This document shows, piece by piece, positions 1-37,021 of a DNA stretch of 64,000 nucleotides (position 1 is its first letter; each line of letters starts with the position of its first letter). The notes beneath the pieces were generated by a model. That model ran no database searches and was not told where the DNA came from. It saw only the letters and a list, made by a program, of their open reading frames with translations. The position numbers were made by a program, and so were the translations under genes. This stretch comes from Escherichia phage SP27. The DNA lies in sequence record LC494302.1; one strand, 5' to 3'.

Positions 1-29
1 AGTATATTAAACTCAGTGATACTATTGAA

Positions 30-728
30 ATGAAAGAAGAAGATTGTGTAGAACTTTTCATTTTTGAATTCGATGCCGGAAATGGTAATTCATTACTAGT
101 AAGTAATATTGAAGAACATTTAATGTATCATGAAATTGAAGATGTAGATTTTGAAAGTATTAAAAATGTTGTTCATATGGTTGGTGGTAGTATTACTGAT
201 GATTCAGATATCGGTCATAATATTTCACTGTGCTTAATTTCTCATCCAAAAACTCGTGGTTTTAAAGTTCCACAAGATGAAACTTACGTGTCTGAAACTG
301 CTGATGAAGGAATTTATCCTTGGAATGATTATGTAGAATACTATGGTCATTTCTGTTCTGATACAAAAGAACTGAAAAAAGGCGAACAATATTTTGATAT
401 GTTCCGTGCTGCACAGCGTTTAGTACTGAATAATACTGAACTATTTCCTGATCGCGGCGAAGAAAATATGATTGATATTATCTTCAAGAACTACGATTAT
501 GTACAGAACATTCCTGATAATGTACATTTGGAATATGTTCACGGTTCTTCAAACAAATTCTATAATATTGAATTGAATGCTCCAGTGTGTGAAGTAATTA
601 TTGAGTACGGTGCTATTGGTAAAACCAGTACTACAGATGGTGAAGAATTCGAAACTATTGAAGAAGCACGTAAGTTCTTCGAGAAGAAAGTAATTTCTAA
701 AATTAAAAGTGGTTATAGCCCAAAATGA
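30..728 (+). CDS. hypothetical protein (232 aa), acidic
   Basis: Long ORF in the dominant + orientation, tightly coupled to the next ORF (ATGA overlap at 725). No motif recognised. Confidence 0.45.
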   Translation: MKEEDCVELFIFEFDAGNGNSLLVSNIEEHLMYHEIEDVDFESIKNVVHMVGGSITDDSDIGHNISLCLISHPKTRGFKVPQDETYVSETADEGIYPWNDYVEYYGHFCSDTKELKKGEQYFDMFRAAQRLVLNNTELFPDRGEENMIDIIFKNYDYVQNIPDNVHLEYVHGSSNKFYNIELNAPVCEVIIEYGAIGKTSTTDGEEFETIEEARKFFEKKVISKIKSGYSPK

Positions 729-34762: not shown

Positions 34763-34773
34763 CGGAGAATATA

Positions 34774-35250
34774 ATGATTCATGAACACCGAGGTAATCTG
34801 TTTGAATTATTCAGTACTGTAACAGATGATAAAACAGCAATACATATAATTGCTCATGGTTGTAACGCACAGGGTAAAATGGGTTCAGGTTTTGCAAAAG
34901 AGCTAAGAAATCGTTACCCAATGGCATATGATGATTATAAAGCATATGAAAAGGAAATGGGATTTCTTAGAATTGGACAAATTGCATATTCAGCAATTAA
35001 CGATAATTTGATTATTGCAAACTGTATTACCCAAAAAATGTACGGTAATGACGGTGCTAAATATGTCAGTTATGATGCAATCGACGATGTGTTCAAACAT
35101 CTAAATTATTTTTGTAAAGTTGATCGAGATGTTCATGTACACTTCCCGAAAATTGGAGCCGATTTGGGCGGCGGTAACTGGAACGTTATCAAAGAAATCA
35201 TTGATCACCGACTGGTCAATGCAGAAAAACACTTATACATTCTAAAATAA
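34774..35250 (+). CDS. macrodomain protein of the TARG1/OARD1/DarG type (ADP-ribose hydrolase family)
   Basis: GNLF...HIIAHGCNAQGKMGSGFAKELRNRYP and FPKIGADLGGGNWNVIKEII parallel the GDLF...AHC.S.D..MGAGIA and PRIGCGLDRLQW segments of TARG1-type macrodomains as recalled. Confidence 0.65.
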   Translation: MIHEHRGNLFELFSTVTDDKTAIHIIAHGCNAQGKMGSGFAKELRNRYPMAYDDYKAYEKEMGFLRIGQIAYSAINDNLIIANCITQKMYGNDGAKYVSYDAIDDVFKHLNYFCKVDRDVHVHFPKIGADLGGGNWNVIKEIIDHRLVNAEKHLYILK

Positions 35251-35269
35251 ACAAAAGGACTTGACAAAA

Positions 35270-35578
35270 ATGACTATGACCGTTAAACTACTAAACATCA
35301 ATAACATTGGCCCAGTACTAGCAGTTCTTCAAACCGATTCTGCTGAAGCTGTTGTAGTTAACTACCCAGCACAACTAGGGACTGACGAAAATGGTGAAAT
35401 CATTCTTCGTGATTATCTAGAGTTTGTTAGTATGGAGAAAAATGTTATTTTTTATAAATCCAACATTATTAGTGTTAGTGATGCAAACCCTGCATTAGTT
35501 GATGCTTATGTTGATGCTATTAAAGCAATCGAAAACACTCCAAAAGTTTTCGTTCCTGAGAATAAAATCATTCTATAA
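35270..35578 (+). CDS. hypothetical protein (about 102 aa)
   Basis: ATG 35270; ORF track gives a TTG at 35261. Confidence 0.4.
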   Translation: MTMTVKLLNINNIGPVLAVLQTDSAEAVVVNYPAQLGTDENGEIILRDYLEFVSMEKNVIFYKSNIISVSDANPALVDAYVDAIKAIENTPKVFVPENKIIL

Positions 35579-35590
35579 TAGAGGTATATA

Positions 35591-35968
35591 ATGGCTGCTA
35601 ATGACGTTAAAGTAAAAACTATCCAAGCTATCGTAGTACTGAAAGATTCTACACCATCCCCTAAAGAATTAGTAATGGCTGGGATGACTATGTTACATCA
35701 ATACAACCCTGAATCACCTAACTATGTTCAAGAATACGAAGCTAAGAAGTTTAAAGAACATTGGCAGTCATGGATTAAAGATAATGAAATGGAGCAGGTA
35801 GTTTATGCTGCTGATGACATTTTCGAACTGGAACAAATTGAATATCTAGCTGGTCAGCAATCAGTACCATTGAGCATTTTCGGTAATGGTGAAGAAGTTC
35901 TGGTATTGGGACCATTCACTGCTGATGATATCATTCACTTACTGAGTAATTGTAAGAAAATTGAATAA
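35591..35968 (+). CDS. hypothetical protein (125 aa)
   Basis: ORF with GAGG RBS. Confidence 0.45.
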   Translation: MAANDVKVKTIQAIVVLKDSTPSPKELVMAGMTMLHQYNPESPNYVQEYEAKKFKEHWQSWIKDNEMEQVVYAADDIFELEQIEYLAGQQSVPLSIFGNGEEVLVLGPFTADDIIHLLSNCKKIE

Positions 35969-36179
35969 AAATTCGAAACTATCAGGTTACCGTAACAACA
36001 CGTTGAAGTACAATGATATTAAGTACTGGGTTGATCCTTACTTAAATAAATCATTGTTAATGTACAGAGATAAATCACGAGATCTATATGGAATATATGT
36101 TACTCAGTTAATATATATAATAGATTCCGAACATTTTACTCCATTGGTATACCTGTACTGCTTGTATAATTCAAAATAA
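35961..36179 (+). CDS. hypothetical small protein (72 aa)
   Basis: ORF with weak signals; may be spurious. Confidence 0.25.
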   Translation: MNKNSKLSGYRNNTLKYNDIKYWVDPYLNKSLLMYRDKSRDLYGIYVTQLIYIIDSEHFTPLVYLYCLYNSK

Positions 36180-36184
36180 CTATT

Positions 36185-36230
36185 AGCACCTCTAAATAAT
36201 GTATATAAACATTAATGAGGTGCTTTTTTA
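36185..36230 (+). terminator. large-loop hairpin plus T-run
   Basis: agcacctc ... gaggtgct stem with a 24-nt AT-rich loop containing TATATAAAC, followed by TTTTTT. Confidence 0.35.
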
Positions 36231-37021
36231 TGTCTTACGATTATATGGGTGGAAACCCTGATGCTCCTAACTTTGACCATCGTGAAAAACTGAAAGATGT
36301 TATCACTCAAATGTTGGGTGCTGGGGCCGTTGAGGTAGAAATTACTGATGGTCAATTAGAAATTGCAATTGATAATGCGGTATCGAATTACAGAGCGTGG
36401 AGTTCTGCTTCTAAAGAAGAAGCATTTTTAAATATGAAATTTTATGATTCACAATCTGTATATATGCTACCAACTGAAGTTGAAATTGTTAAAAAGATTT
36501 ATCGTTATGGTAATGGTTACTTAAGTTCTGGTAGTGGGAACTCAGTAGATCCGTTTTCTCTAGCATTCACCAACACTTACTTATTGACTTCAGCACGAAA
36601 TGCAGGTGGATATGATCTAACTACATATGATTTTAGTTTTCAGTTCCAAGAACTGGTAGGTCGTATGTTTGGTCGTGATATTATATTTCAATTTAACCCA
36701 ATGACCAAAAAATTAATTATAGATCGTGATATTCGCGGTACTGAAGAAGTACTATTACACGTATATCATAATATTCCTGAACCATTGTTGTTTCAAAGAC
36801 AGCAAAGTTATCCTTGGCTACGTGATTGGGCATTGTCTGAAGCCATGATTATGTTGGGTCGTAACCGTGCCAAATTTGCTTCTCTTCCAGGTCCACAGGG
36901 AACGTTTTCTATGGATGGTGATACATTACGTAATGAAGGATTACAACTTCAGGAACAGCTTAAAGAGCGTTTGAAACGTTATCAAGATGGTGCTGAACCA
37001 CTAGGTATGATTATTGGATAA
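36230..37021 (+). CDS. hypothetical protein (263 aa), possibly virion/assembly-related
   Basis: ATG 36230 directly after the hairpin T-run (ORF track start 36215 lies inside the hairpin). Confidence 0.5.
   Translation: MSYDYMGGNPDAPNFDHREKLKDVITQMLGAGAVEVEITDGQLEIAIDNAVSNYRAWSSASKEEAFLNMKFYDSQSVYMLPTEVEIVKKIYRYGNGYLSSGSGNSVDPFSLAFTNTYLLTSARNAGGYDLTTYDFSFQFQELVGRMFGRDIIFQFNPMTKKLIIDRDIRGTEEVLLHVYHNIPEPLLFQRQQSYPWLRDWALSEAMIMLGRNRAKFASLPGPQGTFSMDGDTLRNEGLQLQEQLKERLKRYQDGAEPLGMIIG

What the first reader, a model, noticed from the sequence alone, without database searches (positions are those of the whole stretch)
34774..35250. Phage-encoded TARG1/DarG-type macrodomain: candidate eraser of ADP-ribosylation
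The ORF carries the hallmark segments of the TARG1/OARD1 macrodomain class, the same class as the antitoxin domain of DarG, which removes ADP-ribose from DNA modified by DarT. DarTG is a known anti-phage system that ADP-ribosylates phage DNA. A phage-borne DarG-like macrodomain is therefore a plausible counter-defence enzyme, or a regulator of phage ADP-ribosyltransferase targets. This is inference from motifs only.
Basis: partly seen in the sequence, partly recalled or inferred. Interest (0 to 1): 0.6.

Follow-up and report, generated by a model that had tools for sequence, protein, structure and literature searches.

The report
Jumbo-phage ADP-ribose-removing macrodomain enzyme
A giant E. 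coli phage carries a small macrodomain enzyme that most likely strips ADP-ribose tags off DNA or related molecules, plausibly to undo a bacterial defence; the gene is already annotated and the idea already has a proven precedent, but this glutamine-type subtype has never been tested.

Summary

It is not TARG1- or DarG-type in the active site. TARG1 K84 (DarG K80) is replaced by Gln87, which is invariant in 262/262 relatives. TARG1 D125 is Gly132, and there is no DarG C-terminal domain.

It belongs to the SCO6735/BT1257 "Gln/Asn" subclass. SCO6735 removes thymidine-linked ADP-ribose from DNA without the Lys. T4 Tk.4 is in the same Gln-type group.

An anti-DarT2 "orphan antitoxin" role is therefore plausible. 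It has a precedent in PhiKZ AdfM, but it is unproven here.

Gene context points instead to NAD-dependent RNA repair or ADP-ribose metabolite processing:
- a CCA-adding enzyme, a NUDIX hydrolase and a weak 2H hit nearby;
- phage Sir2-NUDIX, Pnk and Rnl genes elsewhere in the genome;
- a bacterial NAMPT-Macro-NrtR operon.

Verdict: observation confirmed, interpretation partly supported. It is a new, untested member of a known kind, of moderate interest.

The parts
34774..35250 (+). Coding sequence of the 158-aa stand-alone macrodomain (identical to PBECO4 gp028); stop codon included
34764..34767 (+). GGAG ribosome-binding site, 6 nt upstream of the ATG
   Evidence: Read directly from the sequence
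34733..34763 (+). Terminator-like hairpin (10-bp stem, 5 G-C pairs, 4-nt loop) followed by a T-rich tail, ending 11 nt before the ATG. It closes the upstream gene, so the macro gene is expressed either by read-through or from an unrecognised phage promoter
   Evidence: Consensus scan; sequence. Function not tested
34855..34896 (+). Residues 28-41, HGCNAQGKMGSGFA: family signature containing Asn31 (codon 34864-34866, equivalent to SCO6735 Asn27 and AdfM Asn23), Gly29 (position of SCO6735 Val25) and the Gly-rich ADPr/phosphate-binding loop 1
   Evidence: H28 258/262, G29 256/262, N31 260/262, G39 261/262; equivalences; roles inferred from PMC9411070 and PMC13309987
35020..35076 (+). Residues 83-101, NCITQKMYGNDGAKYVSYD: contains Gln87 (codon 35032-35034) at the position of the catalytic Lys of TARG1/DarG/AdfM and of Gln85 of SCO6735, followed by a clade-specific conserved loop (Y90, G91, D93, G94, K/R96, Y97, Y100)
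   Evidence: Q87 262/262, G91 261, Y100 261; alignment to the Lys of AdfM/DarG/TARG1 and the Gln of SCO6735/BT1257; lowest model confidence falls here (mean pLDDT 72 for residues 91-100)
35146..35181 (+). Residues 125-136, PKIGADLGGGNW: Gly-rich diphosphate-binding loop 2. Gly132 occupies the position of TARG1 Asp125
   Evidence: P125 260/262, G128 259, L131 250, G132 233 (the rest Ala), G134 255, W136 246; equivalence to TARG1 MPRIGCGLDRLQW

Best explanation
The gene encodes a catalytically competent, stand-alone ADP-ribosyl hydrolase with a macrodomain fold. It belongs to the ALC1/TARG1-like class, in the Lys-independent 'Gln/Asn' subclass typified by Streptomyces SCO6735 and Bacteroides BT1257. 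T4 Tk.4 is in the same Gln-type group. Shown: the fold, the class, the invariant active-site residues and the absence of the TARG1 Lys/Asp dyad. Inferred mechanism, by analogy with SCO6735: ADP-ribose binds in the cleft lined by loop 1 (G34-A41) and loop 2 (P125-W136). Gln87, held in place by Asn31, hydrogen-bonds the ring oxygen of the distal ribose. A water positioned by the backbone at residue 29 promotes cleavage of the C1'' linkage, releasing free ADP-ribose. Most likely biological substrate (inferred): ADP-ribosyl-thymidine placed on phage single-stranded DNA by host DarT2-type toxins. The protein would then act as an orphan antitoxin that keeps phage DNA replicable and packageable in DarTG2-carrying E. 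coli, as PhiKZ AdfM does with a Lys-type macrodomain and T4 AdfN does with a NADAR domain against DarT1. The confidence of 0.4 applies to the full statement including the DNA/DarT2 substrate. My confidence that it is an active ADP-ribose-C1''-cleaving macrodomain of the Gln subclass is about 0.9.
Against: There is no experiment on this protein or on any phage Gln-type member. It fails DarG membership: no catalytic Lys, no C-terminal DarT-binding domain, 32.9 against 250 bits. Val25 of SCO6735 is Gly here, and the SCO6735 Lys-bearing mobile loop is replaced by a different conserved loop. The protein is near-neutral (pI 6.7) whereas SCO6735 is strongly basic (pI 10.0). AdfM (5.1) and Mtb DarG (6.9) are not basic either, so this point is weak. 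Context does not suggest anti-defence. In RaK2/121Q-like jumbo phages the gene is vertically inherited in the fixed block CCA-adding enzyme - NUDIX - glutaredoxin - ... - Macro - neck - dNMP kinase - sheath. In other phages it lies near Pnk and RNA ligase. In Denitromonas it lies in a Prs-NAMPT-Macro-NrtR NAD-salvage operon. None of five cellular loci examined has a DarT neighbour. Poa1p, an ADPr-1''-phosphatase, is almost as similar as DarG.
Confidence: 0.4

Rival explanations
1. Small-molecule ADP-ribose derivative processing tied to NAD-dependent RNA repair or NAD salvage. In this reading the macrodomain converts ADP-ribose-1''-phosphate (as Poa1p does) and/or O-acetyl-ADP-ribose into free ADP-ribose. 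A phage NUDIX hydrolase then degrades the ADP-ribose, or it is recycled. The substrates would come from a KptA-like reaction of the phage Sir2 (RNA 2'-phosphate removal yielding ADPr>P), opened by a 2H phosphoesterase, or from host NAD-consuming defences.
Against: The residue at the key position differs from Poa1p (Ser there, invariant Gln here). No KptA/Tpt1 is annotated in the phage. Sir2 lies about 40 kb away, and Iyer et al. note that these repair-type sirtuins are not coupled to an adjacent Macro gene. T4-type Pnk/Rnl repair needs no NAD. The 2H hit is sub-threshold and covers only the C-terminal third of the model. The window NUDIX shows only a generic Nudix box, with no ADPRase signature. 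The same style of contextual argument predicted small-molecule roles for phage NADARs, which turned out to act on DNA.
Confidence: 0.3
2. RNA de-ADP-ribosylation. In this reading the enzyme removes ADP-ribose from RNA. One target would be 5'-phospho-ADP-ribose caps, which block ligation of broken tRNAs and are made by KptA/Tpt1-type enzymes. Another would be base-linked ADPr installed on mRNA by defence ARTs such as CmdT. Either way translation would be restored during infection.
For: Neighbours are translation- or tRNA-related: HPF and CCA-adding enzyme in the window, PTH2 and YqeY in the syntenic locus. Homologues lie near Pnk/Rnl in other phages. CmdTAC shows that mRNA ADP-ribosylation is a real anti-phage mechanism in E. 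coli (PMC11618068). From my own knowledge (Munnur et al. 2019; Munir, Banerjee and Shuman 2018; not checked here), TARG1 and other macrodomains remove ADPr from phosphorylated RNA ends, and Tpt1 can cap 5'-phosphate RNA with ADPr.
Against: No direct evidence. SCO6735 was inactive on the guanine-linked substrate modelled as non-cognate, and nothing shows that a macrodomain can reverse N6-adenine ADPr. The CmdTAC paper reports no phage eraser.
Confidence: 0.1
3. Protein mono-ADP-ribosyl hydrolase. In this reading the enzyme reverses Glu/Asp-linked ADP-ribosylation of phage or host proteins, installed either by a host defence ART or by a phage ART or sirtuin, as a regulatory cycle.
For: SCO6735 and TARG1 also de-MARylate glutamate-linked protein substrates. 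The phage encodes a Sir2-family protein.
Against: No ART is annotated in the 348-kb genome. The WGR protein has no detectable PARP catalytic domain. Sir2 is not adjacent to the macro gene. T4-type ARTs modify arginine, which macrodomains do not reverse (established knowledge, not tested here). DarG-type relatives act only on DNA.
Confidence: 0.07
4. Non-catalytic ADP-ribose reader or sponge. In this reading the protein only binds ADP-ribose or ADPr-derived immune signals such as Thoeris gcADPR or His-ADPR. Gln replaces the catalytic Lys here, as it does in the non-catalytic ALC1 macrodomain.
Against: The Gln/Asn pair is exactly the pair required for catalysis in SCO6735. It is invariant together with H28, G29, G91 and Y100 across 262 members, which suggests a precise active site. 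The closest structural relatives are all enzymes.
Confidence: 0.05

Closest known systems
SCO6735 (Streptomyces coelicolor, PDB 5E3B) and BT1257 (Bacteroides thetaiotaomicron, PDB 2FG1/2AFC): Gln-type ALC1-like macrodomains
   Different: Identity is only 27-29%. Gly29 replaces Val/Ile25. 'ITQ' replaces 'IGQ'. A different, strongly conserved post-Gln loop (YGxDGxKYxSYD) replaces the Lys89/Lys94 mobile loop. The protein is near-neutral, not highly basic. It is phage-encoded. Its activity is untested.
T4 Tk.4 (NP_049723) and PHROG 335 'phosphatase': phage Gln-type macrodomains
   Same: PHROG 335 matches at 1.1e-45. T4 Tk.4 aligns with the family profile at hhalign probability 99.5%, E 3.5e-23, and has HGCN, MGSG, YTQ and PRIGAGIGKGNW. 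Relatives occur in 1,136 of 50,697 cultured phage genomes.
   Different: Identity to T4 Tk.4 is 28%. Tk.4 and the Felixounavirus, Phapecoctavirus and Pseudotevenvirus versions form a sister group in the crude tree and lack the YGxDGxKY loop. No member has been characterised.
AdfM (PhiKZ gp104), the chimallivirus anti-DarT2 macrodomain
   Same: It is a phage-encoded stand-alone macrodomain of the same class, homologous at hhalign probability 98%, and it shares the conserved Asn (N23 there, N31 here). It is the functional precedent for the proposed role.
   Different: AdfM is Lys-type (FPTK) and matches DarG macrodomains at 9e-25 but not BT1257 or SCO6735. Identity to the window protein is 21%. 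AdfM is imported into a phage nucleus, and Asteriusvirus is not a chimallivirus.
DarG (DarG2) antitoxin macrodomain (PDB 5M31, 5M3I, 7OMU)
   Different: Lys80 is replaced by Gln87. There is no C-terminal DarT-binding domain and no adjacent darT. The score is 32.9 bits against an equivalog cut-off of 250.
TARG1/OARD1 (human C6orf130)
   Different: Both residues of the catalytic dyad are absent (K84 to Q87, D125 to G132). S35 is replaced by N31.
Poa1p (yeast ADP-ribose-1''-phosphate phosphatase, PDB 6LFQ-6LFU)
   Different: Ser stands at the Gln87 position. Poa1p has a long insertion before the last strand and an 'INSGIAGVPW' loop. It is eukaryotic and linked to tRNA splicing.

Membership tests
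Macrodomain superfamily (Pfam PF01661 Macro) | Three-layer alpha/beta macro fold | tested here: met
Macrodomain superfamily (Pfam PF01661 Macro) | Score at or above the Pfam gathering threshold | tested here: not met
   16.4 bits against 22. Many homologues at 40-70% identity do pass it, so this reflects model sensitivity and is not evidence against membership.
Macrodomain superfamily (Pfam PF01661 Macro) | Gly-rich ADPr/diphosphate-binding loops | tested here: met
   G37-S38-G39 and I127-G128...G132-G133-G134 are conserved in 204-261 of 262 members.
ALC1/TARG1-like macrodomain class | Closest structural and sequence neighbours belong to this class | tested here: met
TARG1/OARD1 | Catalytic Lys84 | tested here: not met
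   Gln87 at this position in MAFFT, HMMER and hhalign alignments. Invariant Gln in 262/262.
TARG1/OARD1 | Catalytic Asp125 | tested here: not met
   Gly132 aligns with D125. This column is Gly in 233 and Ala in 28 of 262 members. The nearby Asp130 is not conserved (Gly in 179/262).
DarG (DarG2) antitoxin | Catalytic Lys80 in the TK motif | tested here: not met
   TQK here against TKK in Taq and Mtb DarG.
DarG (DarG2) antitoxin | C-terminal DarT-binding domain (protein of about 330-350 aa) | tested here: not met
   The protein is 158 aa. DarG HMM matches cover only profile positions 16-139 of 329/338.
DarG (DarG2) antitoxin | Adjacent darT toxin gene; score above the NCBIfam equivalog cut-off | tested here: not met
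   Neighbours are small hypothetical genes and a neck gene. Score is 32.9 bits against 250.
SCO6735/BT1257 Gln-type subclass | Gln at the Lys position (SCO6735 Gln85; Q85A inactive) | tested here: met
   Q87 aligns with Gln85. 262/262 conserved. Requirement taken from PMC9411070.
SCO6735/BT1257 Gln-type subclass | Asn that positions the Gln (SCO6735 Asn27; N27S nearly inactive) | tested here: met
   N31 in HGCN aligns with HVCN/HICN. 260/262 conserved.
SCO6735/BT1257 Gln-type subclass | Val/Ile25, whose backbone positions the catalytic water | tested here: inconclusive
   Gly29 here (256/262). The proposed role is played by the backbone carbonyl, so Gly may serve, but the paper calls Val/Ile a SCO6735-specific feature.
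SCO6735/BT1257 Gln-type subclass | Extended basic mobile loop (Lys89, Lys94) and an electropositive DNA groove | tested here: inconclusive
   The loop is present but different (YGNDGAKYVSY). One conserved basic residue, K/R96, occurs in 225/262. pI is 6.7 against 10.0. No model coordinates were available to compute surface charge.
SCO6735/BT1257 Gln-type subclass | Hydrolysis of thymidine-linked ADP-ribose on ssDNA | not testable with these tools
   Requires a biochemical assay.
AdfM-type phage anti-DarT2 factor | Phage-encoded stand-alone macrodomain with the conserved catalytic-site Asn | tested here: met
   hhalign probability 98% to PhiKZ gp104; N31 aligns with N23.
AdfM-type phage anti-DarT2 factor | DarG2-like (Lys-type) sequence affinity | tested here: not met
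   AdfM hits DarG at 9e-25 and not BT1257 or SCO6735. The window protein shows the reverse pattern. Identity is 21%.
AdfM-type phage anti-DarT2 factor | Protects the phage from DarTG2; removes DarT2 marks | not testable with these tools
   Requires genetics and biochemistry.
Poa1p-like ADPr-1''-phosphate phosphatase | Full-length homology to Poa1p | tested here: met
Poa1p-like ADPr-1''-phosphate phosphatase | Poa1p active-site residues / phosphatase activity | tested here: inconclusive
   HxCN is shared, but Ser replaces Gln87 and loop 2 differs. I found no paper in the library defining Poa1p catalytic residues. Activity is not testable here.
PHROG 335 / T4 Tk.4 group | Significant match to the family profile and shared motifs | tested here: met
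   PHROG 335 1.1e-45 over residues 1-157. T4 Tk.4 hhalign 99.5%. Shared HGCN / TQ / IGAG motifs.

The most novel reading that the evidence does not exclude
The Gln-type, Lys-independent macrodomain family that includes this protein and T4 Tk.4 is present in more than 1,100 cultured phage genomes. It could be the general orphan antitoxin that large myoviruses use against DarT2-type thymidine ADP-ribosylation of their DNA. That would explain the unexplained DarTG2 resistance of T4 lacking AdfA and AdfN. It would also show that phages recruited the SCO6735-type mechanism independently of the DarG-derived AdfM.
Probability: 0.3. Interest if true: 0.55.

Novelty: new member of a known kind. Interest (0 to 1): 0.35.

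Why it matters
If the anti-DarT2 reading is right, a very common and so far ignored phage gene family, usually annotated 'phosphatase' or 'hypothetical', would become a recognisable counter-defence marker. That would be useful for predicting the host range of therapeutic jumbo coliphages such as PBECO4, 121Q and JP4 on DarTG2-carrying E. coli. It would also give a second, mechanistically distinct (Gln rather than Lys) solution for erasing DNA ADP-ribosylation in phages. If the RNA-repair or metabolite reading is right, it would supply the missing last enzyme (ADPr-1''-P to ADPr) of the sirtuin/2H/NUDIX NAD-dependent RNA-repair pathway predicted for jumbo phages. Either way the protein is a tractable 158-aa enzyme, and clear point mutants (Q87A, N31A) are available to test. 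The conceptual advance is modest, because phage macrodomains, their abundance in jumbo phages, the SCO6735 mechanism and a phage anti-DarT2 macrodomain are all already published.

Tried and rejected
- Pfam Macro alone is sub-threshold. I relied on the family profile, PDB sequence searches and structure instead.
- DarG membership was rejected: the score is far below cut-off, only the macro part matches and the catalytic Lys is absent.
- Lys88, next to Gln87, could not be a displaced catalytic Lys. That column is variable, mostly Glu.
- Asp130 in 'GADLGGG' could not be a displaced TARG1 Asp. That column is Gly in 179/262.
- I searched for a phage-encoded ADP-ribosyltransferase, NADAR or Tpt1 in the whole PBECO4 annotation and found none, although most genes are 'hypothetical'.
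- The WGR-domain protein gp086 shows no PARP catalytic domain by sequence.
- There is no second macrodomain in the genome: 22 diverse macro queries all hit the same single locus.
- Longer family members carry no informative domain fusions.
- A search for DarT next to cellular family members found none in five loci.
- The window contains no tRNA genes.
- The window NUDIX could not be assigned to ADPR pyrophosphatases.
- The structural-proteomics paper on phAPEC6 does not mention the protein, and PBECO4 gp028 is not labelled as a virion protein.
- The afdb50 fold library was unavailable.
- Model coordinates are not exposed, so I could not compute pocket geometry or electrostatics.
- Literature searches for Tk.4, for phage Gln-type macrodomains, for Asteriusvirus against DarTG and for Poa1p catalytic residues found nothing decisive.
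- GC content equals that of the flanks, so there is no sign of recent horizontal acquisition.

Full report
**What is there.** The window is a segment of a PBECO4/121Q-type jumbo coliphage (genus Asteriusvirus). Bases 33000-37000 are 99.8% identical to Escherichia phages JP4, UB, PBECO4 and others. The flagged ORF exists exactly as described: 34774..35250 on the + strand, ATG start, 158 aa. A GGAG ribosome-binding site lies six bases upstream, and a terminator-like hairpin (34733-34756 plus a T-rich tail) closes the preceding gene. The protein is 100% identical to PBECO4 gp028 (YP_009150342.1). RefSeq calls it 'macro domain-containing protein', and other records call it 'Appr-1-p processing domain protein', 'Macro domain protein' or 'phosphatase'. 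The existence of a macrodomain here is therefore not new.

**Fold and class.** Pfam Macro alone is sub-threshold (16.4 against 22 bits), but every other line of evidence is strong:
- PHROG 335 matches at 1.1e-45.
- Direct PDB sequence hits are BT1257 (7.9e-16), SCO6735 (7.9e-12) and yeast Poa1p (8.6e-7).
- With a 50-sequence family profile the hits are BT1257 6e-27, SCO6735 7e-20, Poa1p 3.5e-16, DarG 2e-12 and TARG1 9e-10.
- AlphaFold2 gives a confident model (pLDDT 93.9, pTM 0.90).
- The DarG profiles of PADLOC (1.4e-10) and NCBIfam (3.9e-8) hit, but only over the macrodomain part and far below the equivalog cut-off (32.9 against 250 bits).

**Active site.** I rebuilt the comparison with verified sequences. 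The TARG1 sequence I recalled is identical to PDB 2LGR. DarG, SCO6735, BT1257 and Poa1p were read from HMMER alignments. PhiKZ AdfM was translated from the construct printed in PMC13309987. Three independent alignments (hhalign, MAFFT, HMMER) agree on these points:
- The catalytic Lys of TARG1 (K84), DarG (K80) and AdfM ('FPTK') corresponds to Gln87 of the window protein.
- TARG1 Asp125 corresponds to Gly132.
- Asn31 corresponds to SCO6735 Asn27 and AdfM Asn23.

The neighbouring Lys88 and Asp130 are not conserved in the family and cannot substitute. Across 262 relatives, Gln87 is present in 262, Asn31 in 260, His28 in 258, Gly29 in 256, and Gly39, Gly91 and Tyr100 in 261 each.

The protein is neither a TARG1-type nor a DarG-type enzyme. 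It is a member of the Gln-type subclass defined by SCO6735 and BT1257.

**Why the function nevertheless survives.** SCO6735 lacks both TARG1 catalytic residues. It still removes thymidine-linked ADP-ribose from DarT-modified ssDNA more efficiently than DarG or TARG1, and it rescues E. coli from DarT. Q85A abolishes its activity and N27S nearly abolishes it. The proposed mechanism is a backbone-positioned water, with the Gln holding the distal ribose (PMC9411070). The window protein conserves exactly that Gln/Asn pair. It differs at the Val25 position, which is Gly29 here. It also differs in the loop after the Gln, where a clade-specific, highly conserved YGxDGx[KR]YxSYD replaces the lysine-bearing mobile loop of SCO6735.

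A phage macrodomain acting as an orphan DarT2 antitoxin is now experimentally established. PhiKZ gp104 (AdfM) removes DarT2 marks, rescues DarT2 toxicity and is needed for plating on DarTG2 hosts (PMC13309987). AdfM is a Lys-type, DarG-like protein. It matches DarG at 9e-25, has no hit to BT1257 or SCO6735, and is 21% identical to the window protein. The window protein is therefore a different branch of the class.

Phage NADAR proteins provide a parallel case. They have the same large-myovirus distribution and were predicted from context to act on small molecules. They turned out to be DNA de-ADP-ribosylases countering DarTG1 (PMC11825919).

**Family and distribution.** The family is large. 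An exhaustive profile search finds 1,015 clusters at 50% identity with E of 1e-30 or better, and 10,272 with 1e-10 or better. tblastn finds relatives in 1,136 of 50,697 cultured phage genomes. These include Asteriusvirus, Eneladusvirus, Felixounavirus, Phapecoctavirus, Pseudomonas, Klebsiella and Citrobacter myoviruses of about 90-180 kb, KVP40-like vibriophages, Rheinheimera, Bacillus and Streptomyces phages. The top hit in the viral structure library is 'tk.4' of a T4-like phage.

T4 Tk.4 itself (155 aa, 'A1pp phosphatase motif') belongs to the same Gln-type group: hhalign probability 99.5%, E 3.5e-23, with motifs HGCN, YTQ and PRIGAGIGKGNW. I found no paper characterising Tk.4 or any phage Gln-type macrodomain. 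T4 lacking AdfA and AdfN is reported to remain fully DarTG2-resistant. Tk.4 is a natural candidate for that resistance, but this is my speculation.

Iyer et al. had already reported that 56% of jumbo phages and 41% of myoviruses encode a Macro domain (PMC9503650). A crude NJ tree without bootstrap groups the window protein with BT1257, SCO6735 and cellular orphans. The Tk.4-like phage group is its sister, and DarG, AdfM, TARG1 and Poa1p lie apart. The phage genome has only this one macrodomain, and its GC content matches the flanks.

**Context.** The immediate neighbours are small proteins without detectable domains. The wider block reads: weak 2H-SAK phosphoesterase hit (28867..29277) - LysM/lysozyme - HPF - CCA-adding enzyme - NUDIX - glutaredoxin - three small ORFs - Macro - two ORFs - neck - dNMP kinase - tail sheath. 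This order is conserved in a 45%-identical homologue on a 198-kb contig, which also carries YqeY and PTH2, and in Yersinia phage fHe-Yen9-03, an Eneladusvirus. Within this jumbo lineage the gene is therefore vertically inherited and does not sit in a variable anti-defence islet.

Elsewhere PBECO4 encodes a canonical Sir2 in an operon with a Nudt16-like NUDIX, plus Pnk, an RNA ligase and a WGR-domain protein. No annotated ART, NADAR or Tpt1 is present. Iyer et al. predict that such Sir2-2H-Nudix sets in jumbo phages are KptA-like, NAD-dependent RNA-repair systems that generate ADPr>P. A Poa1p-like macrodomain would complete that pathway.

Contexts in other lineages are mixed:
- One gene away from Pnk and near RNA ligase in a KVP40-like vibriophage.
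- In an early block with Pnk in Felixounavirus.
- Between vs and tk in T4-like phages.
- Beside a Gad2-family (anti-Gabija) gene, cpYpsA and HD_4 in a T5-like contig.
- In Denitromonas, inside a Prs-like - NAMPT - Macro - NrtR NAD-salvage operon.
- Other chromosomal copies are orphans among housekeeping genes, and none of the five loci examined has a DarT neighbour.

**Weighing.** Homology to characterised enzymes and the AdfM and AdfN precedents favour erasure of DNA-linked ADP-ribose. Gene context favours processing of ADPr derivatives connected with RNA repair or NAD metabolism. All these reactions cleave the C1'' linkage of ADP-ribose, so the enzyme may well do several of them in vitro. 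I commit to the anti-DarT2 DNA-ADPr hydrolase as the single most likely biological role (0.4). The rivals are:
- the metabolite/RNA-repair role, close behind (0.3);
- RNA-linked ADPr removal (0.1);
- protein de-MARylation (0.07);
- a non-catalytic reader or sponge (0.05).

I hold with about 0.9 confidence that it is an active Gln-type macrodomain hydrolase.

**Novelty and interest.** The gene is already annotated. Phage macrodomains are known to be abundant, the Gln-type mechanism is published, and a phage anti-DarT2 macrodomain is published. What remains new is modest but real. This protein and the large Tk.4-like group are an uncharacterised, Lys-independent branch, distinct from AdfM, whose substrate is open. 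I rate it a new member of a known kind, with interest 0.35.

Noticed in passing
L002:17941-19241 (PBECO4 record 65840-67140; outside the window): The phage encodes a canonical Sir2-family protein (gp095, PF02146 3.6e-20) in an apparent operon with a Nudt16-like NUDIX hydrolase (gp094, PF22327 1.3e-18). This matches the sirtuin-centred, NAD-dependent RNA-repair neighbourhoods predicted for jumbo phages by Iyer et al. 2022.
   Followed up: partly
window 3-725 (+): The window starts inside the gene for a 323-aa protein with a C-terminal WGR domain (PBECO4 gp086; PF05406 1.1e-10). The 250-aa N-terminal part has no detectable domain, and no PARP catalytic domain was found by sequence.
   Followed up: partly
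window 28867-29277 (+): A 136-aa ORF has a weak, just sub-threshold match to the 2H-SAK phosphoesterase domain (1.4e-5; 25.8 against 27 bits; C-terminal third of the model only). A gene with the same weak hit sits at the start of the corresponding syntenic block in the distant jumbo-phage locus L014.
   Followed up: partly
window 30389-34193 (+): A run of translation- and nucleotide-related auxiliary genes precedes the macro gene: HPF/RaiA ribosome hibernation factor homologue, CCA-adding tRNA nucleotidyltransferase (32321..33433), a 133-aa generic NUDIX hydrolase (33542..33943) and a glutaredoxin (33945..34193). There are no tRNA genes anywhere in the 64-kb window.
   Followed up: partly
window 34733-34763: A terminator-like hairpin (10-bp stem) with a T-rich tail ends only 11 nt before the macro start codon. 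No convincing sigma-70 promoter lies between them, so how the macro gene is transcribed is unclear.
   Followed up: no
L008:4186-7500 (127-kb T5-like metagenomic contig): A 45%-identical homologue lies in a block with cpYpsA (SLOG-type), an HD_4 domain protein and a Gad2-family (anti-Gabija) gene, near a T5 A2-like gene. This looks like an early or anti-defence neighbourhood.
   Followed up: no
L022:1538-5173 (Denitromonas iodatirespirans): A cellular family member (38% identical, with HGCN and TQ motifs) is embedded in an apparent NAD-salvage operon: Prs-like - NAMPT/NadV - Macro - NrtR (NUDIX plus winged-helix regulator).
   Followed up: partly
L020:5923-6390 (-) (phage T4 tk.4): T4 Tk.4 is a Gln-type macrodomain of the same broad group (hhalign 99.5%) and appears never to have been characterised. 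T4 lacking AdfA and AdfN is reported to remain DarTG2-resistant, so Tk.4 is an obvious candidate to test.
   Followed up: partly
L044:825-5510 (Vibrio phage vB_ValM_R10Z) and L016:547-4762 (Felixounavirus AYO145A): In the vibriophage the order is RNA ligase ... polynucleotide kinase - one ORF - macro. In Felixounavirus the macro protein is 261 aa, with a C-terminal extension of about 100 aa of unknown function, and it lies in an early block with a polynucleotide kinase, bounded by annotated terminators.
   Followed up: no
L033 and L034 (same 186-kb Hyphomicrobiales contig, about 150 kb apart): Two copies of the macro gene give identical match statistics on one contig. The L033 copy is preceded by a gene with a dATP/dGTP diphosphohydrolase N-terminal domain; the neighbours of L034 were not scanned. 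This may be a duplicated prophage-like element or an assembly repeat.
   Followed up: no
L038:4018-4422 (Asticcacaulis sp. AC460): This chromosomal copy translates with a disrupted N-terminal half (RGPN and HQE in place of HGCN and TQE). It may be a pseudogene, or the reading frame may shift.
   Followed up: no
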